Part shown: positions 1-12,237 of the stretch, in pieces
How positions within the stretch are numbered: position 1 is the stretch's first letter
Layout: each line of letters begins with the position of its first letter
Assembly (NCBI GenBank): GCA_964650355.1
Contig: CAZYTL010000008.1
Coordinates: 89-64,088, forward strand
Source of the DNA: an uncultured Gammaproteobacteria bacterium
GTDB taxonomy: Bacteria; Patescibacteriota; Microgenomatia; CAYXHB01; CAZYTL01
Reading direction: 5' to 3'
Length of the DNA stretch: 64,000 nucleotides
Notes under the pieces: generated by a model
Seen by the model: only the letters and a program-made list of their open reading frames with translations
Told to the model about the DNA's origin: nothing
Databases searched by the model: none
Program-made: the position numbers and the translations under genes

Positions 1-171
1 GGAATTCAAGCCTGAACAAACTGGAAAAGACAATCAAAGAGTAATTTCTTCAAACTTGGCCTTAGATTAAGAGATTCGCTTGGCAACTATCCTGCGTTAA
101 TCGAAGGATTTAACCCAGGCTTTTTGGATTTTTGGATTTGGACTGGAAGGAGGTAACTATTCTCTATTATT

Positions 172-199
172 CTGACTTAATCCGAACTTAAGGTATAAT
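172..199 (+). promoter_or_regulatory. sigma70-like promoter (-35 CTGACT, 16-nt spacer, -10 TATAAT); predicted TSS ~206, the first base of the left inverted repeat
   Basis: ctgact at 172-177 and a perfect tataat at 194-199. The expected TSS, 6-8 nt downstream of the -10, falls on the first base of the 12-bp repeat gagagctgtgac at 206-217. Confidence 0.35.
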
Positions 200-205
200 A
201 ACAGT

Positions 206-356
206 AGAGAGCTGTGACAATCGGTATTTGCTGTTGATTTCACGGCAACTAATTGGATTCTTGACTTTACGCCTAACATAAATAACTTTGTTAGGTATTT
301 AAGTATATAGTTTTTGATTGTTCACTTAGGAAAAGTAGCTTTTAGTCACAGCTCTC
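206..356 (+). ncRNA. putative retron-type msr/msd non-coding RNA flanked by a1/a2 inverted repeats
   Basis: Perfect 12-bp inverted repeat gagagctgtgac (206-217) / gtcacagctctc (345-356). It sits immediately upstream of a retron-type RT, as in retrons. Internal hairpins: ttgctg/cggcaa (~231-251) and a 7-bp stem cctaaca/tgttagg (272-295). An SD aagggg lies after the right repeat, 4 nt before the ATG at 371. Confidence 0.4.
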
Positions 357-370
357 CCTTAAGGGGAATC

Positions 371-1909
371 ATGGATACAATAATACAGAGAAATGATGAA
401 GAACTAGAGAATCTCTTTAGATCCTTAAGCAACAATGATGATATTGCTAACTTGCTTGAGGTAAGCAAAGGAACGTTAATTTACTATGTATACAGACTGA
501 ACAAAAGGCTACAGTACAAAACATATCAAGTTGCTAAACGCAATGGTTCTACCCGGACAATCAGTGCGCCTACGTCCAATATCAAGATATTACAACAGAA
601 ATTTAATTATATTTTTCAGTTAGTATATTCACCGAGAGAATGTGCTTTTGCCTATTCTATGGGTAGGAATGTTATACAAAACGCAAGAGTGCACAAACAG
701 TCACGTGTTCTTCTCAAAATTGACCTTAAAAATTTCTTCGAACAAATACACTTTGGAAGAGTCAGAGGATTCTTTATGTCTGAATACCCCTTTGGTTTTG
801 GAGATAAAGTCGCAACAACACTCGCCAACATTTGCACTTTTGAAGGAAAATTACCCCAGGGAGCACCGACCTCTCCCATCATTTCCAATATGATTTGTTG
901 GGGTTTAGATAGAGATCTCCAGCGTCTGTGTAGAAAACTAAAATGCAAGTACACAAGATATGCTGATGACATAATTATCTCAACAAAGCAGAACGAACTG
1001 CCCCTTGATATCGCAATTAATAATAATGGTGTATGCACAATTGGAGAAAAACTTACTTTCTACTTTGAAAAGCACGATTTTGCGTTAAATTTTGATAAGG
1101 TAAAGATGATCAGATCTAATAAAAGACAGTTAGTAACAGGTTTAGTAACAAACGAAATCGTGAATGTCCCCAGAAAATACATCCATGAATTAAGACTTCA
1201 AATGCGAATATGGGAAAAATACGGTTATAAAGAACTGAGTCAATGTGTCCCAAATCGTACTCATAAAAACCCTAAAAAGCGCATAAAGAACTATAAATGG
1301 ACAATCCAGGGAAGATTGAACTATTTGAAACAAGTGAAAGTTGAGAGTGTTTTAGAAGGGCGGCATTATGATATCTATTTAAAGTTGCAACGTTGGTTTG
1401 ACTATCTAATATTGCGCGACAAATTTAATAGTTTAAAAAGTAGTTCTGCTTATCAAGCTAGAGGCTATGCATTAGAGGATATCTTAAACAAATTATTCGT
1501 CATTAATGGCATTAAAGCAAAAAATCCATTTCGTAGGAGGAAAGGTGCAGATCAAATCGATGGTGCGTTTGTATTAGAAAAAAACAAACACTTTTTAATT
1601 GAGTGTAAATGGATAAAAGATACCGACAAAATTAATAAAGAAATTGATGCTTTTGCCAAAAAACTAGATAGATCCGGAGATGAAATTAGTGGTTTATTCA
1701 TCTCGATAGCAGGGTGGAACGAAAATGCTGTACATAATCTTAAAGAAAGCAAAACTAAAAATATTTTACTGTTAGATGGTAAAGATCTAGAAATAGTACT
1801 AACAAATAGAAAAGTAAGCTTAGATGATTTATTTGCCTGGATGCTAGAAAACTTATCTTTTAAAGCTGAACCTCATATACCAGTTAAAGAATTTTTAAAA
1901 ACCTTTTGA
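371..1909 (+). CDS. retron-type reverse transcriptase fused to a C-terminal Mrr-like PD-(D/E)xK nuclease-fold domain
   Basis: RT motifs read from the translation: Y..AKRNGSTRTISAP, NARVH...LLKIDLKNFFEQI (the NAxxH region), LPQGAPTSPIISN, YTRYADDIIIS (YADD at nt 959-970), and the retron-typical KRQLVTGLVTNE (VTG). The C-terminal ~150 aa carries RGYALEDIL...GADQIDGAFVLEKNKHFLIECKW, a D...(D/E)xK pattern typical of Mrr/restriction-endonuclease-like folds. The longest ORF begins at TTG 314, but that start overlaps the right inverted repeat. ATG 371 has an AAGGGG SD. Confidence 0.8.
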   Translation: MDTIIQRNDEELENLFRSLSNNDDIANLLEVSKGTLIYYVYRLNKRLQYKTYQVAKRNGSTRTISAPTSNIKILQQKFNYIFQLVYSPRECAFAYSMGRNVIQNARVHKQSRVLLKIDLKNFFEQIHFGRVRGFFMSEYPFGFGDKVATTLANICTFEGKLPQGAPTSPIISNMICWGLDRDLQRLCRKLKCKYTRYADDIIISTKQNELPLDIAINNNGVCTIGEKLTFYFEKHDFALNFDKVKMIRSNKRQLVTGLVTNEIVNVPRKYIHELRLQMRIWEKYGYKELSQCVPNRTHKNPKKRIKNYKWTIQGRLNYLKQVKVESVLEGRHYDIYLKLQRWFDYLILRDKFNSLKSSSAYQARGYALEDILNKLFVINGIKAKNPFRRRKGADQIDGAFVLEKNKHFLIECKWIKDTDKINKEIDAFAKKLDRSGDEISGLFISIAGWNENAVHNLKESKTKNILLLDGKDLEIVLTNRKVSLDDLFAWMLENLSFKAEPHIPVKEFLKTF

Positions 1910-2013
1910 AGAATGTTTGATTGTGAAGGAGGATAATTCAAGTGTGAGTGTCAAGATTAGTATGTGAAGGGCAAGATTTTTCACCATTGAGGTTTTTAAG
2001 GTAACCCGACAGT

Positions 2014-2275
2014 ATGAGATTGAATGTAATATTTATTCGTTATGTTTATTTAGGTAAACAGCATGGAAGCTATAAAATCGGTGAATCGAAAAACCCAAGT
2101 CGACGTAGAGAAGATAACACTTTTAGGGCCAGAGCCTTTTAAGTTAATCCATGAGATTAAAACAGATGTTATGAATGGAGTTGAGAAGTACTGGCATGAG
2201 AGGTTTAAATCAAAACACAAAAGAGGTGAATGGTTTAATTTATCTAGCACCGACGTTAAGAGTTTTAAGAGGTAG
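2014..2275 (+). pseudogene. T5orf172 / GIY-YIG-like domain gene interrupted by a +1 frameshift near nt 2104
   Basis: Frame 1 (2014-2142) reads MRLNVIFIRYVYLGKQHGSYKIGESKNPSRR..., which matches the YVY...YKIG(x)T...RR N-terminal motif. Frame 2 (2063-2275) reads ...VEKITLLGPEPFKLIHEIKTDVMNGVEKYWHERFKSKHKRGEWFNLS, which matches the ...E..H..F...R..GEWF C-terminal signature. Skipping one nucleotide at ~2104 joins them into an ~87-aa intact domain. Confidence 0.6.
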
Positions 2276-2347
2276 AAACAACCGTTTGGTAGCTGGGTCT
2301 GCCAATTTAAATAGCTTTTTTATCAGACTGAAGGTATTATTACTAAT

Positions 2348-3154
2348 ATGGGCCGAAGGAGTAGTAAGGCAAAAAAAGTTCTCTTTGTTGGGGCAATGGA
2401 AACAGAACTCCGTCCCTTATTGAAAAGTTTGAAGGCAACAGAAAGCAAGAAACTTATTAACATTTACCCTCTTTATAAAGCACGACACCAAACGGCGGAT
2501 ATATTTGTAGTGGAAACATTTGTAGGAGAAGCTAATGCATCAATCGCGGGTTTTGAAGCGATAAGAGAAGTAAATCCTGATTATGTAATCAAATTTGGAG
2601 CAGTTGGGGGAAGTTATCCTGAAAGCAAAGCCAGGGAGATTATCATTCCACTTGGTTTTTTCCATAGAACAGGATGGATTACTAAAGATCAAAAAACTCA
2701 TATACCAACGGCAGATGCTTCTAAATGGGACTCCATTTACGGTGAAAAAGATTACCAAATTCAAGAAAGTAGACACAATTTAGGCGGCATGTCATATTAT
2801 TTTTCAGTTCCCGAACGTTTACAAAGATTTTGTGAGAATACTCTTCGTAAACATAAGATGAAATACGTTACCGCTTATGTGGGGGGCGGTGATATGTGGA
2901 TGACCAATCAACAGGTGTTAAATAATGTTGCGGCAACGATGCTGCCCGCTTCAGCTACACACAGGCGATTTGTATCTGATATGGAGTCATACTCACTTGC
3001 TCATGCCTGTTACCTGACAAAGAAGCCATTTATCGGATGCTATGTGGTAGCAAGTAACGACTACATTAACGAGCTCTACAACCCGGAACTGGTACCGGCT
3101 CAAATGGAGCGGTTGGTGCCATACGCTCTTGAACTCATAAAGACTTTCGGTTAA
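2348..3154 (+). CDS. PNP_UDP_1 family nucleosidase/phosphorylase (MTA/SAH-nucleosidase-like)
   Basis: Motifs VLFVGAMETEL (the GAMEEE-type N-terminus), GEANASIAGFEAIREVNPDYVIKFGAVGGS, YVGGGDMWMTNQ and SDMESYSLAHAC align with Pfs/MtnN active-site segments. It has a ~60-aa insertion relative to the canonical 230-aa enzyme. Confidence 0.7.
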   Translation: MGRRSSKAKKVLFVGAMETELRPLLKSLKATESKKLINIYPLYKARHQTADIFVVETFVGEANASIAGFEAIREVNPDYVIKFGAVGGSYPESKAREIIIPLGFFHRTGWITKDQKTHIPTADASKWDSIYGEKDYQIQESRHNLGGMSYYFSVPERLQRFCENTLRKHKMKYVTAYVGGGDMWMTNQQVLNNVAATMLPASATHRRFVSDMESYSLAHACYLTKKPFIGCYVVASNDYINELYNPELVPAQMERLVPYALELIKTFG

Positions 3155-3206
3155 TAGCGCTTTTAATGAAGGGCTTAGTGAAAATGGCAAAATCAAGATT
3201 CTCTCT

Positions 3207-3986
3207 TTAAACCTTCACTGCATGGATGACCAGGCCAATGGGGCGATCAATGTATTTAGTAAACCCGGGATTGTATTGCAATAACTCTTTATTTAATTCA
3301 GGTTCGTATAAGGCTTTAACGTTATAGCCGCCTCTCACTACCGCATTAAAGTAATCTTCTATTGTCCACTGTTTTTGGTTGACAGCGAAATTTTTCTCAA
3401 CTTTAACGGCTTGGGCAGGTTTGGTCACACTGACGGTGCCCATGAGATACTTAGAGTCGTTGTGGCTGAAGTAACCCCCTAAGTTGATAAATTTACCGCT
3501 GTCTACACCGGCAGTTTGTTGAGCATAAAAATACAACAAATAAGCGGGGTGAAGCACGGAGAAAATTAATTGACCTTGGGTTTTCAACACTCGATGACTT
3601 TCTTGAAGGGGAATATCAATCACCGCCACCTCATTGAGTACCATATTGGAATAGATCAGATCAACTGTCTTTGATTTAAGTGGCCATTTCTTAGTGATAT
3701 CGTGCTGCAAAAATTTAACTCTGGGATCCGATGTTTTTTCTTTGGCGTGCTCCAAATTAGCCGCTGAGATGTCCATCAGCCAAACAGTGGTGGGGTTTTG
3801 CTTTAAAAAGAGGTTTGCCATATATCCATTGCCACAACCCATTTCCATGACCACTTTTTTCTTTAGTGAGCCGACTTTTTCTAGCATCAGCGGATCCAAA
3901 ACATATCTCTTGTAATCTTCGCCTTCATCACCTACTCGACTGTTCCAAAAATCTGAAAACTCCTGGTCTTGATAGATGGACTTCAT
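3207..3986 (-). CDS. class I SAM-dependent methyltransferase (small-molecule type)
   Basis: Motif I VMEMGCGNGY, an acidic motif II (LMDIS), and a Methyltransf_11/25-like layout. It has no DNA-MTase motifs. The longest ORF extends to 4094, but its first 36 aa are low-quality, so the ATG at 3986 is preferred. Confidence 0.65.
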   Translation of the reverse strand: MKSIYQDQEFSDFWNSRVGDEGEDYKRYVLDPLMLEKVGSLKKKVVMEMGCGNGYMANLFLKQNPTTVWLMDISAANLEHAKEKTSDPRVKFLQHDITKKWPLKSKTVDLIYSNMVLNEVAVIDIPLQESHRVLKTQGQLIFSVLHPAYLLYFYAQQTAGVDSGKFINLGGYFSHNDSKYLMGTVSVTKPAQAVKVEKNFAVNQKQWTIEDYFNAVVRGGYNVKALYEPELNKELLQYNPGFTKYIDRPIGLVIHAVKV

Positions 3987-4079
3987 GATGTAAATATACC
4001 AATAACTATCAAAAGTTTGTATACTTAAACAGGTATTATAGGTATTTCTAATTTGCGAACAAAGCAGTGTAAAACTCTT

Positions 4080-4529
4080 ATGAAAACCAGACATCGGACC
4101 ATCGTTTCCGCTTTAATTATCTCAAAAGACAGGAAAGTTCTATTGGGAAAAGAAGAAGAGGGAGGCGTATATCCGGACTGTTGGCACTTACCCGGCGGGG
4201 GACTGGATGCAGGGGAAACTAAACAGGAGGGGTTACGGAGGGAAATTAAAGAGGAAACGGGTATGGATATCACAGGTTTACCCACGAAGTTATTGTCAGA
4301 CAAGGATACGGGAGAACATGTCAAGACTGATAATAAAACCGGCGAAACTTATCTGGCAAAAATGCAGTTTAATGATTATCAAGTCGAATTGGATAAAAAC
4401 GCTGATGAGGTAAAGATAACTTTAGGTGACGATTTGGTGGAATATCGCTGGGTGTCGATTGGTGACCTGAAAAATTACCACCTGACTCCCCCATCTCAGA
4501 AATTATTTACTTCGCTGGGATGGATTTGA
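4080..4529 (+). CDS. NUDIX hydrolase
   Basis: Nudix box GGGLDAGETKQEGLRREIKEETG (GX5EX7REUXEEXGU). The longest ORF starts at TTG 4053. Confidence 0.75.
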   Translation: MKTRHRTIVSALIISKDRKVLLGKEEEGGVYPDCWHLPGGGLDAGETKQEGLRREIKEETGMDITGLPTKLLSDKDTGEHVKTDNKTGETYLAKMQFNDYQVELDKNADEVKITLGDDLVEYRWVSIGDLKNYHLTPPSQKLFTSLGWI

Positions 4530-4606
4530 AAGTTTCATTCTGCGGCAAAGGGGAAATTGACTTTTGAGGTCGCTTTTGGAGTACTCGGGTTGTACAATTA
4601 GGCCTG

Positions 4607-5107
4607 ATGACCAATGTAACCATCAGAAAACCGAATCTTAAAGATCTGCCGGCTTTAATTGTCTTGTGGCACGGCCAGTACGATTATCATCACGATATTG
4701 ACTCGACTTATTACGTACCCAATTCAAAAGAACTGGATCAAAAATTCAGAAAGTATCTTAAAAAGGCAATTTTAAAAAACGGCCCCTATATTTTGCTGGC
4801 TGAAGTGGATAATGAACCGGTGGGTTTTGTTACCTATGAGAAATCACATGTTGATTATTTTGATACCAAAATCGTGGAGTATGGCGACATTATAGAGCTT
4901 TACGTGCGCCCCGAATACAGAAAACAGGGGATTGGCAAGCAGTTAATGGAAGAGGTGGAGAGGTTTTTTAGAGACAAGGGGATCGAATACCTGAGCCTGG
5001 GGTGCTCTACTTTCAACAAAGACGCGTTGGATTTTTATGAAAATTTCGGGTTTGTTAATAGACAGTCACTGCTTTACAAAAGCCTTCAACATGAGAAAAG
5101 CGACTAA
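4607..5107 (+). CDS. GNAT family N-acetyltransferase
   Basis: Motif A IELYVRPEYRKQGIGKQLM (Q/RxxGxG/A). Confidence 0.75.
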   Translation: MTNVTIRKPNLKDLPALIVLWHGQYDYHHDIDSTYYVPNSKELDQKFRKYLKKAILKNGPYILLAEVDNEPVGFVTYEKSHVDYFDTKIVEYGDIIELYVRPEYRKQGIGKQLMEEVERFFRDKGIEYLSLGCSTFNKDALDFYENFGFVNRQSLLYKSLQHEKSD

Positions 5108-5654
5108 TTTAGAAACTTATTTTGAACCATATATTTCGATTTGCAGGCCTGGTGATTGGGAACATGCCAAAAGGGTAGTTGCTTGGATCAAACAACTTGC
5201 TTCTGATCGGGAAGATTTAGATTTGCTAATCATTGCCGGATATATACATGATATTGGCTGGAGTGGATTAGCTCCCAAGACCAAAAGGCTGACTCGAGAT
5301 GAGTTACTAAAGCTCCAACCTCAAGCTGATAAACAAACGGATAAGCTAGTAAAGAAGGCCTTGGCCAGTTGGGCATTGACCGATGGTGAGCTGAATAAAA
5401 TTTTAAGACTTATTAAGGCCACAGAAACTTATGAAGCAAAACAAGAAGATGAGATGATTTTGGTTGATGCAGACAATTTAAGTAAAACATCACCCGACCA
5501 TATCAAAGAAAAATACGCCAGATCAGATTGGTTAAGTCTTTGTGAGCTTTTCGAAGAAAAATTACCGCAAAGAATTAAGACCACCAAAGGAAAACAACTA
5601 TTCCCTGCCAAACTAAAACAACTAAGAAATCAACTGGAAATGGAGCTAGCTTAA
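5091..5654 (+). CDS. HD-domain phosphohydrolase
   Basis: H...HD motif: AGYIHDIGW and an upstream EHAKRV. The longest ORF (5037) overlaps the GNAT gene, so the internal ATG at 5091 is preferred. Confidence 0.55.
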   Translation: MRKATNLETYFEPYISICRPGDWEHAKRVVAWIKQLASDREDLDLLIIAGYIHDIGWSGLAPKTKRLTRDELLKLQPQADKQTDKLVKKALASWALTDGELNKILRLIKATETYEAKQEDEMILVDADNLSKTSPDHIKEKYARSDWLSLCELFEEKLPQRIKTTKGKQLFPAKLKQLRNQLEMELA

Positions 5655-5752
5655 AGTTCGAATTTAAAAAAGTTTTTCCTATCAAGAATGTTCTTTGAGG
5701 AATCAGAGTAGTAAAATTAGTTCAGGGGTGGAAATTTACCAAACAGAGTAAA

Positions 5753-6535
5753 ATGCAGAGGAAGGTATTCATCACCAACAGGAAAGGGTTAAAATTGGCT
5801 ACGGTGGTTGAGGCTCCGAATGATGATGAGAAGTTGCCATGCGTGATACTGCTTCACGGATTTAAAGGATATAAGGAAGAAGAAACCTACACTGATTTGG
5901 CAGAAAGACTAGTTAAAAAGGGTATCTCCTCTGTTCGGTTTGATGCTTCAGGATTCGGAGAAAGCGAAGGAACTTTAGAAGAGGATTACCGATTTTCAAA
6001 CTATATAAATGATACAGAAGATGCCTATGAGTGGTTAAAACAACAGGCCTTTTGTGATCCAGACAGGATTGGGGTGTGCGGACAGAGTATGGGCGCTGTC
6101 CAAACTATTCTTTTTGCTTCTCAACATCCCGAAATCAAGGCAGCCTGCGCTATTTCTCCTCTGAATAAAGTCGGGACCAAAGATGCCCTGGGGCAAGTCG
6201 TGGGCGCATGGAAACAGAAAGGATATTTGGATGAAGTAAGTTCAAAATACGGCAAGATTAGAATTCCTTATGCCTATTTGGAAGACGTTCAGCAGTATGA
6301 TTTTGTTAAGCTGGTTAAAAACGTCAAATGTCCATTATTAATTGTGGCAGGAAAAAAGGATATCACTGTACTTCCCGAGCAAACTATGGCAGTCTATAAG
6401 GCGGCCCATCAGCCTAAGCAGTTACTGGAATTCGATAACATGGACCACTTTTATAAGAGAAACCCCAAGGTATTAGCGGGGATAGACGAAAAAGTTGTTG
6501 CTTTCTTGATGGAAAATTTACAAAGCACTTTGTAA
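5753..6535 (+). CDS. alpha/beta hydrolase fold protein
   Basis: Nucleophile elbow GQSMGA (GxSxG), a HGF oxyanion region (ILLHGFKG), and a C-terminal D...H. Confidence 0.7.
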   Translation: MQRKVFITNRKGLKLATVVEAPNDDEKLPCVILLHGFKGYKEEETYTDLAERLVKKGISSVRFDASGFGESEGTLEEDYRFSNYINDTEDAYEWLKQQAFCDPDRIGVCGQSMGAVQTILFASQHPEIKAACAISPLNKVGTKDALGQVVGAWKQKGYLDEVSSKYGKIRIPYAYLEDVQQYDFVKLVKNVKCPLLIVAGKKDITVLPEQTMAVYKAAHQPKQLLEFDNMDHFYKRNPKVLAGIDEKVVAFLMENLQSTL

Positions 6536-6537
6536 AA

Positions 6538-7404
6538 ATGGACGCCTTTGAGATAAAAGAAATTCAGGCAAAAAGCATTCTTAGTCCTTCAACACTAAAA
6601 GATGTGGACTATGATTACTCTTGTAATCCTTATGTGGGATGCCGTTTCGGGTGTGTATATTGTTATGCCAGCTTTATGGGAAGGATGGTGGGGAAAAAGA
6701 CCAGCGATTGGGGAAATTTTGTCTATGCAAAAATGAATGCTCCTGACCTGTTAAGAAAAGAAGTCCCGAAACTTAAAAATCATGGTCGGGGGAAGGTAAT
6801 TTGGTTTAGCTCCGTAACTGATCCCTATCAGGGTTTAGAGGCTAAATATCAGCTGACACGTAAATGTTTACAGGTGTTGGTTGAGGACAATTTCCAAGGG
6901 GAGGTGTCTTTTCTCACCAAGTCAGACCTGGTGCTCAGAGATATTGATGTTTTAAAGCAACTTAAAAACGTGGAAGTGGGATTGACTGTCACGTCAACCG
7001 ATGACTCCATCTCCCGATATTTTGAGAAATACGCTCCTCCGGTTTCTGCCAGACTAAAGGCGCTTAAAAAGTTGCATCAGGAAAAAATTAAAACTTATGC
7101 CTTTGTGGGCCCACTTTTACCACACTTTATGGCCAACAAGGATGAACTCGACAAACTTTTTGTTTCAATTCATGAGGCAGGAGTGAGAGAAATATATTTT
7201 GAATTTTTAAATTTATCTACTTATATCCGTAATCGGCTGAAAAATGAGCTTAAGGACCTGGATATAAACATCTGGAATGAGTTTTACGCGACCAAAGATA
7301 ATGATTATCGAGACAGGTTTAGCGACCTCGTTTATGGTCTGGTTAAAAAATTCGGATTTAAACTGCGATTGGAAAAGACTTTATATCATGACGAGATGAA
7401 TTAA
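6538..7404 (+). CDS. radical SAM protein, SplB/DNA-repair-photolyase-like (COG1533)
   Basis: CRFGCVYC = CX3CX2C within CNPYVGCRFGCVYCYA. It is translationally coupled to the upstream gene (TAAaaATG). Confidence 0.6.
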   Translation: MDAFEIKEIQAKSILSPSTLKDVDYDYSCNPYVGCRFGCVYCYASFMGRMVGKKTSDWGNFVYAKMNAPDLLRKEVPKLKNHGRGKVIWFSSVTDPYQGLEAKYQLTRKCLQVLVEDNFQGEVSFLTKSDLVLRDIDVLKQLKNVEVGLTVTSTDDSISRYFEKYAPPVSARLKALKKLHQEKIKTYAFVGPLLPHFMANKDELDKLFVSIHEAGVREIYFEFLNLSTYIRNRLKNELKDLDINIWNEFYATKDNDYRDRFSDLVYGLVKKFGFKLRLEKTLYHDEMN

Positions 7405-7604
7405 CAATTCACATTGGCATACAGCATTGAAGTAAGAGTTTTTATTAATTGGAGGTTATAAACTAGTTCAAATGTCAGACATGCTAAAATATGAGAAAGA
7501 TGCTATCTTAACGTTAAGAAGTTTGACCTGGATATAGTCGTCAGCACAAGTCTCTAGCTCAGAATAACCAATGTTGACTCTAAAATTACAAATAACTTTG
7601 TCAC

Positions 7605-8318
7605 ATGGCTGAAGAATTTAGTGAACTTCCGGTAGAGCAACTAGAGTCGTATCTGTTGTCAAAAGATGTTCTGTGGAAATTGCAATTTGCCATTGGAGAC
7701 GCTGCTAAAGACTTCGGCTTAGGTAAAGAAGGTCATGAAATCGAACTGGCACGAGCGGCGAGTAAATTTCCAAACTTGAATACTGATTTTTTCTTTGAGA
7801 CTAGAGGTAATATGGAAGGCTTTAATTATGATCTTAGAACCCATTCTCACTTGGAAAGACTTCTAGATCCGAAAAGGTCAAAGCCGGAAAATTACTTTGG
7901 TTTGCTGTTTGCCCATTATGGAATTGAAGCCGGTAAGCGCCAATATCCGGCCGTTGCGAGTAAAGAGACACCAAGTACGCCCTTCTTTTGGTCGATAGCT
8001 CCTTATTTAGCTCAGGAATTACACTACTATGGTGTCCCTCCGCGGCAAATTGCTGAAACCGTTTTCGCCTGGGGAAACACCGCTGGTAGTAGAGGCCAGA
8101 AACAGTTGCTCGGTATGGATAAATTTTATGGGCTTGATGCTTTTTATAGCATGGAGCTAATCCTGTCAGAAGATCCTGATAACCTTACCCACAAATTCTC
8201 AAGCGGAGTGGCGCAATTACTTTGTCGAAAACACGACATGTTCAAGGATGCAATCAAGGAAGCAAACCCCATGGCGGTCAGAGATACAAACAGAGAATAC
8301 CAGTTCACAGAGGATTAA
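7605..8318 (+). CDS. hypothetical protein
   Basis: 237-aa ORF with an ATG start and no recognisable motif. Confidence 0.4.
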   Translation: MAEEFSELPVEQLESYLLSKDVLWKLQFAIGDAAKDFGLGKEGHEIELARAASKFPNLNTDFFFETRGNMEGFNYDLRTHSHLERLLDPKRSKPENYFGLLFAHYGIEAGKRQYPAVASKETPSTPFFWSIAPYLAQELHYYGVPPRQIAETVFAWGNTAGSRGQKQLLGMDKFYGLDAFYSMELILSEDPDNLTHKFSSGVAQLLCRKHDMFKDAIKEANPMAVRDTNREYQFTED

Positions 8319-8376
8319 CTCGGATACCTCGTTTGACTTACCCACTAACCAGATAATAGTCCCAAAATTAATCGTA

Positions 8377-8865
8377 ATGACACACAATAAATTACTTCAT
8401 GAAGTGGTGATCACGGCCATTGTGGTTAAGAATGGCAAGTACTTAATTACCAAGCGGTCTGCAAATGAAAACCGCTTTCCTAACAAATGGACGGTACCGG
8501 GAGGCAAACTGGAAATCGAAGATTATGTGAACCTGCCAAAAGACACAGAGTTTTACTGGTATAACGTTTTGGAGCAAGTCTTGCGCAGGGAAGTGAAAGA
8601 AGAAGTGGGGATTGAAATTGCCAACATTGAGTATGTGACCAGTTTGGCCACGATTCACGCTGACGGCAAGCCGTCTCTGGTGGTTTCCTGCATGGCGGAT
8701 TATCAGTCCGGAGAAGTGACACTGCAAGAAGAGGAGATGGATGATTTTGCTTGGGTGACTTTGAAAGAAGCCAAAGATTATGATCTGATCGATGGGATTT
8801 ACGATGAACTGGTCATGGCGGAAAAGAAAGCCAAAGGAGAAAAGAGTGAGTGGAAAAGGGCATGA
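8377..8865 (+). CDS. NUDIX hydrolase
   Basis: Nudix box PGGKLE...REVKEEVGIE with an insertion. The internal ATG at 8377 is chosen because the longest ORF overlaps the upstream gene. Confidence 0.7.
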   Translation: MTHNKLLHEVVITAIVVKNGKYLITKRSANENRFPNKWTVPGGKLEIEDYVNLPKDTEFYWYNVLEQVLRREVKEEVGIEIANIEYVTSLATIHADGKPSLVVSCMADYQSGEVTLQEEEMDDFAWVTLKEAKDYDLIDGIYDELVMAEKKAKGEKSEWKRA

Positions 8866-8871
8866 AGCCGA

Positions 8872-9930
8872 CTAAGATTCCCTTTCCTGCCCACCGTAAA
8901 ATACAAAATCTTTAGGTGAGAGTTTAGGCGTCACCCTGGTTTCCACTCCTTGAGATTGACCATTAAGCATCGCGAGTATCATATCCCGTGCTACCAGTCT
9001 GGGTAAGGTAGCGCCACCCATTGGGAGCTGAATCATGTTATAAAATGCTTCGTCATCGATGTTCTTTTTAATCCTAGCTCCATTGAGAAACAGCCACATT
9101 GAAGTCTCTGTATCATCAATGATAGCTCCACTAAGGATTTCACAAAATCTGATGTCGCCGGCTTTTGCTTTTTTAATACAATATTCCAGCATTGCAAATT
9201 TAGCTGCCCCAATGGAATCAACGTATTTATTCAAAACTCTTTCAAACAAAGGACCCACATCAGGAGATACACTTTGCAGACCTTCCGTTATCCTTCTCTG
9301 GTTTTCTTCTTTACTGAAGTGGCCTGGGTAACTATTAGTGGTGAGCACAAGTAGGGGTGACAAATCAGGATACTTTTGTCTTTCCTCCACTGCTGCATCT
9401 AAAATGTTTTTGGGGGTAACGAAGCCAATATTGCGAGCAACCTGTTCGCCCTCGCGCATCCCGCCTGCGGCACAAAAGGCGAGAATTCCTACTGGATATG
9501 TTAGTAGTTCCGGCTGAAATAGTCTCTTTATTTCATCTCTGGTCAGCGGTTCGCTAAAATCCGCTTGAACCGGAAATACAAAAGGTGGCAACTGATCTTT
9601 ATTCTCAAGGTTGCCTAAGGCTAGTGGATAGCGGCTATGATACTGAACAATTAGCGGAGTGTCTCCGTCGCCATATTCAATCAACGCTCTCATCGCTTCT
9701 CCCACAGCTATGCCTACCGGAAGTCCGCTCGCGCCGAAGAACGCTGTGCCATTGGCATTTTTCAGGGACAGGGCTAACATTTGCCGCTCCTGGACGGAAA
9801 GATCTAAACCAGGGATCAATCTCTGTTCCGGACCTCTGATCATAATTGATAAAAGTTTACCATAATTCCTCTGTCCTGAATGGTGGTTAATATCGAGTTG
9901 GTTTGGGTATATACTATTCTTTGTGGGCAA
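8872..9930 (-). CDS. conserved hypothetical protein
   Basis: 352-aa ORF with Gly-rich segments (FFGASGLPVGIAVGEAM, CAAGGMREGE). The fold was not recognised. The start is uncertain: TTG at 9930 or ATG at 9843. Confidence 0.4.
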   Translation of the reverse strand: MPTKNSIYPNQLDINHHSGQRNYGKLLSIMIRGPEQRLIPGLDLSVQERQMLALSLKNANGTAFFGASGLPVGIAVGEAMRALIEYGDGDTPLIVQYHSRYPLALGNLENKDQLPPFVFPVQADFSEPLTRDEIKRLFQPELLTYPVGILAFCAAGGMREGEQVARNIGFVTPKNILDAAVEERQKYPDLSPLLVLTTNSYPGHFSKEENQRRITEGLQSVSPDVGPLFERVLNKYVDSIGAAKFAMLEYCIKKAKAGDIRFCEILSGAIIDDTETSMWLFLNGARIKKNIDDEAFYNMIQLPMGGATLPRLVARDMILAMLNGQSQGVETRVTPKLSPKDFVFYGGQERES

Positions 9931-9941
9931 AAAGGATGATT

Positions 9942-11063
9942 ATGGCTATAAAAACACAACTTTTAAGAACTTTATACCGGTTGCTCGGTAGACCCTGCTT
10001 TTTCCTTATCGACCCAGAGACGATTCACGACCTGATTACCCGGTTGGGATATGGGTTGGGCAGTAACCAGATGCTCAGATCGTTAACCAAATGGAGTTTT
10101 GATTATCAGCATCCGAGTTTGGAACAAACTGTTTGCGGGATGAGATTCCGCAACCCGATTGGGCTGTCAGCCGGATTTGATAAAGACGCTAACTTGGTGC
10201 AGGTATTGCCGGCGGTGGGATTCGGGTATATGCAGGTGGGCACGGTGACGGCAGACCCGTATAAAGGCAACCCCAAGCCCAGATTGTACAGGCTGCCTAA
10301 ATCACAAGCACTGGTGGTTTATTACGGACTGAAAAATATCGGGGCAAAGAAAATTATTGAGAAGATGAAAAAATACCAAGTTAAACGGTTTCCTTTAAGT
10401 ATCTCAATCGGTAAAACAAATAGCTCCAAGACTGCCAAGCAAAAAGCAGGAATTAATGACTATTTTGAATGTCTGGAAATGTTTGCTAAGGCTGAAATCG
10501 GGGATTTTTACACGATTAACATTTCCTGCCCCAATACTTTTGGAGGAGAGCCGTTTACCACCCCGGAATCGCTAGAGTCCTTATTAAAAAAACTCACCAG
10601 TCTGAAAATTAACCGACCCGTATTCCTGAAAATGCCTATTAATCTGCCCTGGCCCAAATTCAAAAAACTTGTGGATGTGGCGGTTAAGTATAAAATAGAC
10701 GGAGTAATTATCGGCAACCTGAATAAAAACCATGGGGACAAAACAGTTATGGATGCGATTCCTGAGAGAGTGAAGGGCGGAATCAGCGGCAAACCCACTT
10801 GGAAGTTGTCAAATGAACTGATCTCTCAAACCTACAAACATTATGGCAAACGACTCACTATCATTGGCGTGGGAGGGATTTTTTCTGCTGAAGATGCTTA
10901 TGAGAAAATCAGAAGAGGATCGTCTTTGGTGCAGTTGATTACCGGCATGATTTATCAAGGCCCGCAATTGATCGGAGAAATTAATCAAGGCTTGGTGGAA
11001 CTATTAACTAACGACGGGTACGAGAATATTCACCAGGCTATCGGAGCTGACTATAGGAAGTGA
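9942..11063 (+). CDS. pyrD: dihydroorotate dehydrogenase (quinone), class 2
   Basis: GLSAGFDKDAN, GFGYMQVGTVT, ISCPNT, IGVGGI. The ATG at 9942 has an AAGGA SD; the longest ORF starts at TTG 9903. Confidence 0.85.
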   Translation: MAIKTQLLRTLYRLLGRPCFFLIDPETIHDLITRLGYGLGSNQMLRSLTKWSFDYQHPSLEQTVCGMRFRNPIGLSAGFDKDANLVQVLPAVGFGYMQVGTVTADPYKGNPKPRLYRLPKSQALVVYYGLKNIGAKKIIEKMKKYQVKRFPLSISIGKTNSSKTAKQKAGINDYFECLEMFAKAEIGDFYTINISCPNTFGGEPFTTPESLESLLKKLTSLKINRPVFLKMPINLPWPKFKKLVDVAVKYKIDGVIIGNLNKNHGDKTVMDAIPERVKGGISGKPTWKLSNELISQTYKHYGKRLTIIGVGGIFSAEDAYEKIRRGSSLVQLITGMIYQGPQLIGEINQGLVELLTNDGYENIHQAIGADYRK

Positions 11064-11148
11064 TCTTGTCCGGGTTACTGTTTCAAGAATTTGGTTTGGT
11101 GAGAAGTATGAGTGAGGGATTTTGAGACGAAATGAGGACTATTATTAG

Positions 11149-12237
11149 ATGGAGGCGAAATCATATTTGGCTGCCTATTCGCAAAATGCCGATCAGTTCC
11201 TAGATGAATTTTTTGCCCACAAGACCAGAGAGGCTCGTCAACTTGGCGATTCAGGCAACGGATTGATTAATGTTCCCGAACAGATGATGGTCATGTATCG
11301 GGAATATATGCGGGGAGGAAAGAAGTTAAGAGGCGCGTTAGTGCAATTGGGTTATGAGTGTGGAGGAGGAGCAAATCTGAAGGAAATATTGCCTATTAGC
11401 GTGGCTTTGGAAATCATTCACAGCTTCATTCTCATGCACGATGATGTGATGGATCAGGATGAGTTGCGGCGGGGAATGTATACCTTGCATAAACAATGGG
11501 AAACCATCAGCAAACAAAAATTAGTCTCCCGAGCCAACCACAAGCATCTGGGAGAATCATTGGCCTATACCACCGGAGACGTGGGCGGTTTTTTAGCTAT
11601 GGGTCTGATCGCCAACTCACAGTTATCTCCTGAAAAGAAATTGACAGCTTTTTCGCATTTAAGCAAGTTCTTATTGAAAACCGGTTATGGTCAGGGTTTG
11701 GATGTGGTTTATGAAGTCAGCGAACACGTGGGGGAACGAGATGTGTTACGAGTGCATTTACACAAGAGCGCCCACTATACGATTTCCGGCCCGCTGATCC
11801 TTGGTGGTTTACTGTCAGGTGCCACCCAACAACAATTGGCTGCCATGGAACAGTTCGGAGAAAAAGTGGGGATCGCCTTTCAACTAAGAGATGACGAGTT
11901 AGGTTTGTTAGGCAACGAACAAATTTTAGGAAAGCCCATTGGGTCTGACATTCGGGAGGGGAAAAATACTTTATTAAGGATCAAGGCCATGGAATTGGCC
12001 AACCAGAGACAAAGAAAACGACTGGAAGAGATTTATGGCAGGCAACAGGTGACTGATCAGGAAATTAATTTGGTTAAAGAAATTACGGTTCAGAGCGGAG
12101 CCTTGGATTATTCCCAAAAACTGACTCGCAAATTGACCACTGAAGGTAAACAGACAATTCCGTTAATCACTGCTGATATCCAACTCCAGGATACTTTGGG
12201 ACAGATTGCGGATTTTATTGTGGAAAGGAAAAAGTAA
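11149..12237 (+). CDS. polyprenyl diphosphate synthase (trans-IPPS, IspA/GGPPS family)
   Basis: FARM LMHDDVMD and SARM FQLRDDELG aspartate-rich motifs. Confidence 0.85.
   Translation: MEAKSYLAAYSQNADQFLDEFFAHKTREARQLGDSGNGLINVPEQMMVMYREYMRGGKKLRGALVQLGYECGGGANLKEILPISVALEIIHSFILMHDDVMDQDELRRGMYTLHKQWETISKQKLVSRANHKHLGESLAYTTGDVGGFLAMGLIANSQLSPEKKLTAFSHLSKFLLKTGYGQGLDVVYEVSEHVGERDVLRVHLHKSAHYTISGPLILGGLLSGATQQQLAAMEQFGEKVGIAFQLRDDELGLLGNEQILGKPIGSDIREGKNTLLRIKAMELANQRQRKRLEEIYGRQQVTDQEINLVKEITVQSGALDYSQKLTRKLTTEGKQTIPLITADIQLQDTLGQIADFIVERKK

What the first reader, a model, noticed from the sequence alone, without database searches (positions are those of the whole stretch)
172..3154. Candidate undescribed retron-like defence module: promoter, inverted-repeat-flanked ncRNA, RT::Mrr-nuclease fusion, T5orf172 (frameshifted) and a PNP/MTAN-family protein
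Four elements sit co-directionally within 3 kb. First, a sigma70-like promoter whose predicted TSS falls on the first base of a perfect 12-bp inverted repeat. Second, a ~150-nt structured non-coding stretch bounded by that repeat, which is the a1/a2 architecture of retron msr/msd. Third, an RT carrying retron-diagnostic NAxxH, YADD and VTG motifs, fused to a C-terminal PD-(D/E)xK Mrr-like domain. Fourth, a GIY-YIG-like T5orf172 gene and an MTA-nucleosidase/PNP-fold gene. PNP-fold nucleosidases are established ATP/NAD-depleting effectors in CBASS and Detocs, retron RTs pair with diverse effectors, and nuclease-fold domains are common effectors. I do not recognise this exact combination (RT fused to Mrr, with T5orf172 and PNP) as a described retron type or DRT class.
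Basis: partly seen in the sequence, partly recalled or inferred. Interest (0 to 1): 0.9.

Follow-up and report, generated by a model that had tools for sequence, protein, structure and literature searches.

The report
Single-gene retron with fused nuclease
This is a compact bacterial retron (promoter, structured RNA, and a reverse transcriptase fused to a restriction-enzyme-like nuclease) of a widespread fusion type missing from current retron classifications; the two downstream genes are unrelated neighbours.

Summary
The core observation holds. At 172-1909 there is a promoter, a 150-nt RNA element closed by a perfect 12-bp inverted repeat (207-218/345-356), and a 512-aa retron reverse transcriptase with a C-terminal PD-(D/E)xK (Mrr_cat / Card1-like) nuclease domain.

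At least 120 full-length homologues exist. Fifteen loci carry the same upstream RNA, with strong covariation: 18 of 25 pairs show compensatory changes, and 92.8% of cells pair against 33-43% in slid controls. The best structural match is retron Eco2 (RT-TOPRIM).

The four-part module is refuted. No homologue locus has a T5orf172 or PNP gene nearby. The PNP gene's own homologues (59-66% identity) lie in other contigs from candidate-phyla-radiation-like bacteria, without any reverse transcriptase. No neighbouring gene is conserved, so this is a single-gene retron.

The searchable literature lists TOPRIM, DUF3800, protease and TIR as fused retron effectors. It does not list a PD-(D/E)xK nuclease.

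The likely mechanism follows Eco2: msDNA holds the nuclease inactive until phage infection disturbs it. This is inferred, not shown.

Verdict: a new variant (effector type) of a known kind of system. Interest is moderate.

The parts
172..199 (+). Sigma-70-like promoter: -35 CTGACT (172-177), 16-nt spacer, -10 TATAAT (194-199). The predicted transcription start is about 206, at the 5' edge of the inverted repeat.
   Evidence: Best-scoring site in 1-3400, 10 of 12 matches. A TAnnnT -10 element lies 6-8 nt upstream of the repeat in most of 15 homologous loci.
203..360 (+). Retron ncRNA (msr-msd), whole element as delimited by the covariance model.
   Evidence: Covariance model R1 gives 119.4 bits, E 2.3e-28, and a single copy in the 64-kb window. 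MFE -46.2 kcal/mol, z = -4.9. No Rfam family matches.
207..218 (+). 5' arm of the terminal inverted repeat (GAGAGCTGTGAC). It pairs with 345-356.
   Evidence: Perfect 12-bp complement. In the 11-pair terminal helix of the alignment, 10 pairs show compensatory changes and 96.4% of cells are paired.
228..248 (+). msr hairpin (UUGCUGU..ACGGCAA).
   Evidence: Present in the window's MFE and centroid folds. In the alignment it has 7 pairs, 5 with compensatory changes, and 92.4% of cells paired.
262..344 (+). Presumed msd (template for msDNA). Conserved flanks (ACTTTACGCC ... GGAAAAGTAGC) form the base of a long stem. The interior is variable, with hairpins at 271-296 and about 300-329.
   Evidence: Helices 3 and 4 of the consensus structure are 86-89% paired. 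The interior differs between loci. Its role as msd is inferred from retron architecture and was not shown.
345..356 (+). 3' arm of the terminal inverted repeat (GTCACAGCTCTC).
371..1909 (+). RT-nuclease fusion gene, 512 aa. The start is ATG 371, after the AAGGGG ribosome-binding site at 361-366. The RT with its thumb covers aa 1 to about 326. Linker helices cover aa about 327-356. The nuclease covers aa 352-512.
   Evidence: Homologue N-termini align to ATG 371. PADLOC, NCBIfam and PDB all give retron RTs as best hits. The full-length AlphaFold model (pLDDT 88.7) best matches retron Eco2, E 6.8e-29.
1424..1906 (+). C-terminal PD-(D/E)xK nuclease domain (Mrr_cat / Card1-Can2-like). The catalytic motif is D397 (1559-1561), E411 (1601-1603), K413 (1607-1609).
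   Evidence: Pfam Mrr_cat 29.3 bits against a cut-off of 21, E 1e-6. A profile against PDB hits the CARF nuclease Cdn1 8z4i at 1.9e-5 and Can2 8bao at 0.045. The AlphaFold model has pLDDT 93.3. Foldseek hits are MspJI, N.BspD6I, Card1, Cap4, Can2 and EndoMS.
2014..2278 (+). NOT part of the unit: T5orf172/MUG113 (GIY-YIG-like) remnant broken by a frameshift. The N-terminal part is in frame 2014-2142 and the C-terminal part in frame 2063-2278.
   Evidence: MUG113 6.7e-8 for the C-terminal part only. The frames are shown. The same frameshift is in the second assembly, L168. It is absent from all homologous RT loci.
2348..3154 (+). NOT part of the unit: PNP_UDP_1-superfamily gene (divergent MTA/SAH-nucleosidase-like), a host gene.
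   Evidence: PNP_UDP_1 9.5e-19. It is below every NCBIfam cut-off and has no PADLOC hit. Homologues at 59-66% identity lie in other contigs without an RT or T5orf172 nearby.

Best explanation
Positions 172-1909 are a self-contained, single-gene retron. One promoter drives a ~150-nt msr-msd RNA closed by the 207-218/345-356 stem, followed directly by a retron reverse transcriptase fused to a PD-(D/E)xK (Mrr_cat / Card1-like) nuclease.

Shown here:
- the anatomy of the locus;
- retron-clade membership of the RT;
- the conserved, covarying RNA structure;
- the nuclease fold with an intact D-ExK motif;
- recurrence of exactly this two-part unit, with no conserved partner gene, across many uncultivated bacteria.

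Inferred by analogy with the solved RT-TOPRIM retron Eco2 (PMC12916289):
- the RT copies the msd into msDNA that stays bound to the protein;
- the RT-msDNA complex keeps the fused nuclease inactive;
- a phage-induced change to the msDNA, such as degradation by a phage nuclease, frees the nuclease;
- the nuclease then cuts cellular and/or phage nucleic acid and aborts the infection.

The retron sits in a low-GC segment of a chromosome from a Microgenomates-type (candidate phyla radiation) bacterium, next to a decayed T5orf172 gene. It was probably acquired horizontally. The PNP gene is an ordinary host neighbour.
For: RT identity:
- PADLOC RT-TIR_XII 1.5e-114, RT-Protease_XI and RT-Toprim_I-C.
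- NCBIfam Retron_TIR and retron_Ec67_fus match over the RT part only.
- The best PDB sequence hit is retron Ec67 at 3.6e-54. The best Foldseek hit is Eco2 at 6.8e-29, ahead of other retron RTs, then group II intron, DGR and Abi RTs.
- NAxxH, YADD and VTG are invariant.

ncRNA:
- 15 loci were aligned.
- RNAalifold predicts 25 pairs, 18 with compensatory changes.
- 92.8% of cells are paired against 33-43% when partners are slid, and 0 of 500 shuffles reach the observed score.
- The repeat arms differ in sequence between loci but stay complementary.

Nuclease: with invariant D397 and E411.

Single-gene unit:
- At least 120 full-length homologues of 500-545 aa exist.
- No conserved neighbour was found in 18 RT-nuclease loci.
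- Downstream genes differ in the 66%, 48% and 44% identical relatives.

Horizontal acquisition and host:
- GC is 31-38% in 1-2500 against 41-46% further on.
- Relatives lie next to a serine recombinase, a tyrosine integrase and a terminase-like gene.
- ThrS is 72-75% identical to Woesebacteria, Microgenomates and Pacebacteria proteins.
Against: - Nothing here shows msDNA synthesis, nuclease activity or phage defence.
- The branching G could not be assigned to one conserved column.
- The window's full-length protein does not report Mrr_cat in Pfam. The hit appears only when aa 352-512 are scanned alone.
- About a third of family members have ExR instead of ExK. This is unusual for active PD-(D/E)xK enzymes.
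- A crude NJ tree of RT domains does not recover the RT-nuclease proteins as one clade.
- Novelty rests on not finding a description in the open-access library. Subscription papers, such as Millman 2020 in Cell, could not be searched.
Confidence: 0.8

Rival explanations
1. A four-part defence module in which the T5orf172 gene and the PNP/MTAN-fold protein are additional effectors working with the retron. For example, the PNP protein would deplete nucleotides, as in CBASS or Detocs.
For: The genes are co-directional and closely spaced within 3 kb. The PNP protein is divergent from canonical Pfs, at 46 bits against a cut-off of 169. T5orf172 lies in the same low-GC segment as the retron.
Against: No T5orf172 or PNP homologue occurs in any of 172 fetched loci, except the window's own duplicate contig. 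The closest RT relatives have different downstream genes. PNP homologues at 59-66% identity sit beside a peptidase M3, GreA, a Trp repressor or an AdoMet decarboxylase, with no RT. PNP has no PADLOC hit. T5orf172 is frameshifted in both assemblies.
Confidence: 0.04
2. The C-terminal PD-(D/E)xK domain is not the killing effector. It acts instead as a nucleic-acid-binding or sensing module, for example by gripping the msDNA or recognising modified phage DNA as Mrr-type enzymes do. The toxic activity would lie elsewhere or be absent.
For: ExK is replaced by ExR in about a third of family members and in most stand-alone relatives. Mrr and MspJI relatives are modification-dependent DNA readers and cutters (their known biology is from general knowledge).
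Against: D397 and E411 are invariant, and the window's copy has a canonical D...ExK. No other effector gene is conserved nearby. The closest sequence relatives with solved structures are active effector nucleases, Cdn1 and Can2.
Confidence: 0.1
3. A selfish retroelement rather than a defence system. The RT with a C-terminal restriction-like endonuclease resembles R2-type non-LTR retrotransposons, so the nuclease could nick a target for reverse-transcript insertion.
For: The architecture is analogous: an RT followed by a REase-like endonuclease. The R2 comparison is from memory, not tested. Relatives lie near recombinases and integrases.
Against: The RT is retron-clade, not LINE-like or group II-like. 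There is a single copy in the 64-kb window. The RNA has the retron closed-stem architecture upstream of the ORF, not a full-length element transcript. Flanking sequences differ between loci, with no sign of target-site structure.
Confidence: 0.03
4. Not a retron at all. It would be a group II intron, DGR, Abi or DRT-type reverse transcriptase that happens to have an upstream inverted repeat.
For: Weak hits to group_II_RT_mat (1.3e-17) and Drt2 (2e-9).
Against: Retron models score about 80-100 orders of magnitude better. Structural ranking puts retron RTs first. The RNA covaries as a retron-like fold in 15 loci.
Confidence: 0.01

Closest known systems
Retron type I-C (Retron-Eco2 / Ec67, RT-TOPRIM fusion)
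   Same: One polypeptide carries a retron RT and a C-terminal nuclease, with the ncRNA immediately upstream and no accessory gene. It is the best PDB sequence hit (3.6e-54) and the best structural hit (6.8e-29). The covariance model built here also hits upstream of TOPRIM-like relatives L007, L046, L039 and L012.
   Different: The effector fold is TOPRIM in Eco2 and PD-(D/E)xK here. The NCBIfam retron_Ec67_fus score is 300 against a cut-off of 450, and only the RT part aligns. Eco2's trimeric msDNA cage and tRNA cleavage (PMC12916289) are not shown for this family.
Retron type XII (RT-TIR fusion)
   Same: It is the top PADLOC and NCBIfam hit for the RT portion (381 bits; 316 bits). It has the same single-gene layout.
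   Different: There is no TIR domain. The alignments stop at aa ~326, and the NCBIfam score is 316 against a cut-off of 600.
Retron type XI (RT-trypsin-like protease fusion)
   Same: It is the second-best PADLOC hit. Related loci L009 and L011 carry Trypsin_2 C-termini, and the same RNA model hits weakly upstream of them.
   Different: The effector is a serine protease there and a nuclease here.
Card1 / Can2 / Cdn1 (type III CRISPR) and Cap4 (CBASS) PD-(D/E)xK effector nucleases
   Same: They share the nuclease fold and show detectable sequence similarity (8z4i 1.9e-5 and 8bao 0.045; Foldseek hits). In each case the domain is the C-terminal effector of a sensor-effector protein.
   Different: Those enzymes are switched on by cyclic oligonucleotides bound to CARF or SAVED domains. 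Here the partner domain is an RT with its msDNA.
Mrr / MspJI-type type IV restriction endonucleases (Pfam Mrr_cat PF04471)
   Same: The catalytic domain family is the same: Mrr_cat scores 29.3 bits for the window's domain, and 17 of 24 family members hit it. MspJI is the top Foldseek hit.
   Different: There is no N-terminal modified-DNA reader domain. The fusion partner is an RT.

Membership tests
Retron (general) | RT of the retron clade with the NAxxH (region X), YADD and VTG (region Y) motifs | tested here: met
   N104..H108, Y197-D200 and V255-G257 are invariant in 34 homologues. Retron HMMs and retron structures are the best hits.
Retron (general) | Adjacent ncRNA whose ends pair through inverted repeats (a1/a2) and enclose the msr and msd stem-loops | tested here: met
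   A 12-bp perfect repeat at 207-218/345-356. Across 15 loci, 18 of 25 pairs show compensatory changes, and 92.8% of cells are paired against 33-43% in slid controls.
Retron (general) | Conserved branching guanosine next to the 5' repeat arm, priming the 2'-5' linkage | tested here: inconclusive
   G residues occur within a few nt 3' of the 5' arm in most loci (window G223/G224), but they do not fall in one alignment column.
Retron (general) | Production of msDNA | not testable with these tools
   This needs expression followed by small-DNA gels or sequencing.
Retron (general) | Associated effector (tripartite system) and anti-phage activity | tested here: inconclusive
   A fused PD-(D/E)xK domain is present and conserved. 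Its effector role and any defence activity are untested.
Retron type I-C | C-terminal TOPRIM domain | tested here: not met
   Only the RT part aligns to the RT-Toprim_I-C and retron_Ec67_fus models. The C-terminus folds as PD-(D/E)xK.
Retron type XII | C-terminal TIR domain | tested here: not met
   The alignment to RT-TIR_XII covers profile positions 3-317 of 478 only. Pfam gives no TIR hit.
Retron type XI | [quoted passage not shown] | tested here: not met
   No protease hit. The C-terminus is Mrr_cat.
PD-(D/E)xK nuclease, Mrr_cat family | Pfam Mrr_cat match above the gathering score, the alpha-beta-beta-beta-alpha-beta core, and a D...(D/E)xK catalytic motif | tested here: met
   29.3 bits against a cut-off of 21 for aa 352-512 scanned alone; not reported for longer segments. 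Strands and helices are in the expected order, with pLDDT 93.3.

The most novel reading that the evidence does not exclude
RT-PD-(D/E)xK fusions are a real, functional and so far unclassified retron type, in which msDNA gates a Mrr/Card1-like nuclease. Their nuclease module is the RT-borne version of a much larger, unrecognised family of ~310-aa single-gene proteins that carry the same module behind interchangeable N-terminal domains. That family has about 1,800 clusters at 50% identity with E <= 1e-10. This would reveal a new sensor-effector defence family. A longer shot, under 5%, is that the msDNA also directs the specificity of the nuclease.
Probability: 0.5. Interest if true: 0.6.

Novelty: new variant of a known kind. 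Interest (0 to 1): 0.5.

Why it matters
- Retrons are classified by their effector. Published classifications list TOPRIM, DUF3800, protease and TIR as domains fused to the RT. A widespread RT-PD-(D/E)xK fusion would add a new type.
- It would show that one conserved RNA-RT chassis has exchanged at least five different C-terminal effectors: TOPRIM, protease, TIR, AlbA_2 and PD-(D/E)xK. PADLOC and NCBIfam gave no full-length match, so such tools would probably name only the RT part.
- The system is one gene plus 150 nt of RNA. That makes it easy to clone and test, and compact retrons are wanted for genome editing.
- It occurs in a candidate-phyla-radiation bacterium. I found no paper on retrons in that group.
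- The same nuclease module marks a large family of stand-alone proteins that may be an undescribed defence family.

Tried and rejected
- Rfam, E-value mode on 1-4000 and gathering mode on the whole window: no retron or other ncRNA family, only four tRNAs.
- Genome-contig scan with the full-length alignment. The patterns fell in the RT, so 78 of 80 loci were other retron RTs. Only L001 and L002 carry the nuclease. They later proved useful as comparators.
- metagenome scan with the C-terminal alignment. Most hits were not RT fusions but ~310-aa stand-alone proteins.
- PADLOC on the nuclease module: only marginal hits, PDC-S02 at about 5e-4 and CARF_PDDEXK at 0.014.
- Viral-contig scan: one weak hit, so the module is not phage-borne in IMG/VR.
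- NJ tree of RT domains to test for a single origin of the fusion. It was star-like and unresolved, with RT-nuclease proteins in at least three groups interleaved with other types. I draw no conclusion from it.
- Search for a conserved accessory gene around the RT-nuclease genes and around the stand-alone nuclease genes: none found.
- Literature searches for a retron with Mrr, PDDEXK, REase, restriction endonuclease or type XIV found no description. Mestre 2020 supplements are not held.
- Rejected: the annotated TTG 314 start (531 aa). It overlaps the ncRNA, and homologues align from ATG 371.


Full report
**1. What is in the sequence**

- A sigma-70-like promoter, CTGACT-16-TATAAT at 172-199, is the best-scoring site in 1-3400 with 10 of 12 matches. 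Such sites are not enriched overall: 7 were found against 10.9 expected.
- About seven bases after the -10 element a perfect 12-bp inverted repeat begins. Its arms are 207-218 and 345-356.
- The enclosed RNA folds with -46.2 kcal/mol and z = -4.9. None of 200 shuffles folds as well.
- After the ribosome-binding site AAGGGG, ATG 371 opens a 512-aa ORF that ends at 1909.
- The mechanically longest ORF starts at TTG 314. One public record calls it as 531 aa. It overlaps the RNA and is not supported, because homologues align from ATG 371.

**2. The protein**

*Reverse transcriptase part.*
- PADLOC places the N-terminal ~326 residues with retron RTs of the fused, single-gene types: RT-TIR_XII 1.5e-114, RT-Protease_XI 9.2e-110 and RT-Toprim_I-C 4e-93. 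In each case only the RT part of the profile aligns.
- NCBIfam gives the same picture. All scores are below the family cut-offs: Retron_TIR 316 against 600, and retron_Ec67_fus 300 against 450.
- The best solved relative by sequence is retron Ec67/Eco2, at 3.6e-54.
- The full-length AlphaFold model has pLDDT 88.7. Its best Foldseek hits are Eco2 (6.8e-29), then other retron RTs, and only then group II intron, DGR, DRT and Abi RTs.
- NAxxH, YADD and VTG are invariant in an alignment of 34 full-length homologues.

*Nuclease part.*
- Residues 352-512 scanned alone match Pfam Mrr_cat at 29.3 bits, above the cut-off of 21, with E 1e-6. The hit vanishes when a few more N-terminal residues are included. 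I read this as a filter effect.
- Seventeen of 24 family members match Mrr_cat.
- A profile of the domain finds the nuclease domains of the CRISPR-associated CARF nuclease Cdn1 (8z4i, 1.9e-5) and of Can2 (8bao, 0.045).
- The domain model has pLDDT 93.3. Its Foldseek hits are MspJI, N.BspD6I, Card1, Cap4, Can2 and EndoMS, which are all PD-(D/E)xK enzymes.
- D397 and E411 are invariant. The window's copy has a canonical D...ECK motif.

**3. The family and its RNA**

The protein search returned at least 120 clusters of 500-545 aa that cover 95-100% of the query. Many have precomputed RVT_1 plus Mrr_cat annotation. Those with source names come from Dehalococcoidales, Thermodesulfobacteriota and Zixibacteria, and carry only generic names.

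I collected upstream regions from relatives at 36-66% identity. Fifteen loci have the same 140-170-nt element:
- a -10-like hexamer;
- a 9-14-bp terminal stem whose sequence differs between loci but stays complementary;
- a conserved hairpin;
- conserved flanks around a variable interior.

The window's stem reads GAGAGCTGTGAC. Other loci have GAGGGATATGAG, GGTGCCTGC, GAGGTGTCCGCG and GGGCACTTGTAGG.

RNAalifold predicts 25 pairs, 18 of them with compensatory double changes. On the named structure, 92.8% of cells pair, against 33-43% when partners are slid by 1-3 columns. None of 500 shuffles reaches the observed covariation. This is the architecture of a retron msr-msd RNA. Rfam has no matching family.

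A covariance model built from the alignment finds one copy in the window, at 203-360 with 119 bits. It also hits upstream of related RTs that carry other C-termini:
- TOPRIM-like (L007, L046, L039, L012);
- trypsin-like protease (L009, L011);
- Schlafen/AlbA_2 (L014);
- RT only, about 355 aa (L006, L015, L017, L018).

So one RNA-RT chassis carries interchangeable effector domains.

**4. The neighbours are not part of it**

*Downstream genes of the closest relatives differ.*
- The 66% relative has a small reverse-strand ORF downstream. A weak Sf6-terminase-like gene and an HTH gene lie upstream.
- The 48% relative has Ham1 downstream and a serine recombinase upstream.
- The 44% relative has DUF6788 downstream, with a tyrosine integrase further on.

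*No synteny with the T5orf172 or PNP genes.*
- A tblastn of the repaired T5orf172 protein, the PNP protein and the next methyltransferase against all 172 fetched loci found them only in L168. That locus is a second assembly of the same sequence.
- All-against-all clustering of neighbouring ORFs found no conserved partner in 18 RT-nuclease loci.

*The PNP gene is a host gene.*
- The PNP protein belongs to a small family. Its named members are from Gottesmanbacteria, Woesebacteria and Paceibacterota.
- Homologues at 59-66% identity lie beside DUF1861 and GreA, a peptidase M3 and a Trp repressor, or an AdoMet decarboxylase. None has an RT nearby.
- It has no PADLOC hit.

*The T5orf172 gene is decayed.* It is an ~87-aa remnant split by a frameshift, and both assemblies show the split.

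*Composition and host.*
- GC content is 31-38% over 1-2500 and 41-46% further downstream. This fits a horizontally acquired retron-plus-remnant segment.
- The window is chromosomal: it carries UvrA, ThrS, PcrA and MurA.
- ThrS is 72-75% identical to proteins of Woesebacteria, Microgenomates and Pacebacteria. The host is therefore a candidate-phyla-radiation bacterium.

**5. How it most likely works**

Shown:
- a retron RT;
- its cognate structured RNA;
- a fused nuclease domain with an intact catalytic motif;
- strict co-occurrence of these parts, and nothing else.

Inferred from the only mechanistically solved fused retron, Eco2 (PMC12916289). In Eco2 the msDNA scaffolds a trimer that cages the TOPRIM nuclease. 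The phage nuclease DenB degrades the msDNA, and the freed nuclease cuts tRNAs.

By analogy, I propose four steps for this system:
- the RT makes msDNA from about 262-344;
- the msDNA holds the PD-(D/E)xK domain inactive;
- infection perturbs the msDNA;
- the nuclease then degrades nucleic acid and aborts the infection.

The domain's nearest characterised relatives (Card1, Can2, Cdn1, Cap4) are non-specific nucleases that stay inactive until signalled. That fits this role. The substrate, the trigger and the oligomeric state are unknown.

One caution: about a third of the family has ExR instead of ExK. Some members may therefore bind rather than cut.

**6. Comparison with what is known, and novelty**

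- Mestre et al. 2020 define 13 retron types. Their nuclease-associated systems use HNH, TOPRIM, DUF3800, HEPN and SWIM proteins. Neither 'Mrr' nor 'restriction endonuclease' appears in the text.
- The 2026 Eco2 paper lists fused-effector types as I-C, VII-A1, XI and XII.
- Toro's 2026 SPIRE survey reports two new type XI-like lineages with stand-alone WYL or DnaB_C partners. It does not mention a nuclease fusion or Patescibacteria.
- Other searches found nothing relevant.
- Membership tests for types I-C, XI and XII each fail on the defining effector domain.

I therefore class this as a new variant, an additional effector type, of a known kind of system. The literature check covers open-access papers and bioRxiv only.

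**7. Wider observation**

A profile of the nuclease module was searched against 1.84 billion cluster representatives. It finds 3,189 clusters at E <= 1e-3 and 1,838 at E <= 1e-10.
- Among the best 150, only about 22 have the RT-fusion length.
- Most are ~300-320-aa proteins with the module at the C-terminus.
- These carry at least four unrelated N-terminal regions.
- They have no conserved neighbour gene and are almost absent from viral contigs.

This looks like a modular sensor-effector family that the retron has borrowed from. I did not follow it further.

**8. Verdict**

- The RT::nuclease fusion appears undescribed as a retron type.
- The four-gene module is wrong.
- Interest is moderate at 0.5: a testable, compact new retron type rather than a new kind of system.

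Noticed in passing
L092 3021-3983; L107 3039-; L109, L110, L120, L121, L130, L151, L152, L164 (similar); L097 2775- and L161 3075- (second N-terminal type); L116 2421- (INT_rpt repeats); L127 2754- (AbiJ_NTD3-like): The same PD-(D/E)xK module, including the preceding helix, forms the C-terminus of many ~310-aa stand-alone proteins with at least four unrelated N-terminal regions. The profile search finds 1,838 clusters at E <= 1e-10, and most are not RT fusions. No conserved neighbour gene was found, and PADLOC hits are only marginal (PDC-S02, CARF_PDDEXK). This may be an undescribed single-gene sensor-effector family.
   Followed up: partly
L009 3801-3969 and L011 3789-3963: The RNA covariance model hits, at E 2.5e-4 and 6.6e-4, directly upstream of RT-trypsin-like protease fusions (type XI-like). 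Mestre 2020 reported no recognisable ncRNA for type XI.
   Followed up: no
L014 3974- (Chloroflexota MAG): A related retron RT is fused to a Schlafen/AlbA_2 domain (Pfam 2.2e-13), and the same upstream RNA is hit at E 4.1e-11. This fused domain is also absent from the lists of retron types I read.
   Followed up: partly
window 1601-1609 (E411-C412-K413) and the same alignment column in A1: The catalytic ExK lysine is arginine (ECRW) in about a third of RT-nuclease homologues and in most stand-alone relatives. This is unusual for PD-(D/E)xK enzymes, and its effect on activity is unknown.
   Followed up: no
window 1400-1906 versus 1424-1906: The Pfam Mrr_cat hit (29.3 bits, above the cut-off) is reported only when the 161-aa segment is scanned alone. 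Adding eight or more N-terminal residues, or using the whole protein, loses it. This looks like an HMMER filter effect that would hide the domain in routine annotation.
   Followed up: yes
window 354-366: Just after the 3' repeat arm, CCC-TTAA-GGG can form a small hairpin whose 3' side lies in the ribosome-binding site. L081 (CCC-TTAAC-GGG) and L082 (CCCC-TTT-GGGG) keep the pairing with different loops. It may link RNA folding to translation of the RT.
   Followed up: no
window 1-2500 versus 3000-12000: GC content is 31-38% over the retron and T5orf172 remnant, and 41-46% in the following host genes. This suggests the segment was acquired horizontally. The left boundary lies outside the window.
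   Followed up: partly
window 314-370: The longest ORF, and one public gene call of 531 aa, starts at TTG 314 inside the ncRNA. Homologue alignment supports ATG 371. Automatic annotation therefore masks the 3' part of the RNA element.
   Followed up: yes
L081 1434-1820; L082 211-1749; L086 8670-9614: Close relatives of the retron lie beside a weak Sf6-terminase-like gene, a large serine recombinase and a tyrosine integrase, respectively. This suggests carriage on integrative or prophage-like elements.
   Followed up: no
RT-domain NJ tree from window, P0002-P0118 and L001-L080: RT-nuclease proteins fall into at least three groups, interleaved with TOPRIM, protease and RT-only relatives on very short internal branches. 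The window's subgroup (window, P0002, P0006) sits next to a Parcubacteria RT-only gene, L010. This means either repeated effector swapping or simply an unresolved tree.
   Followed up: partly
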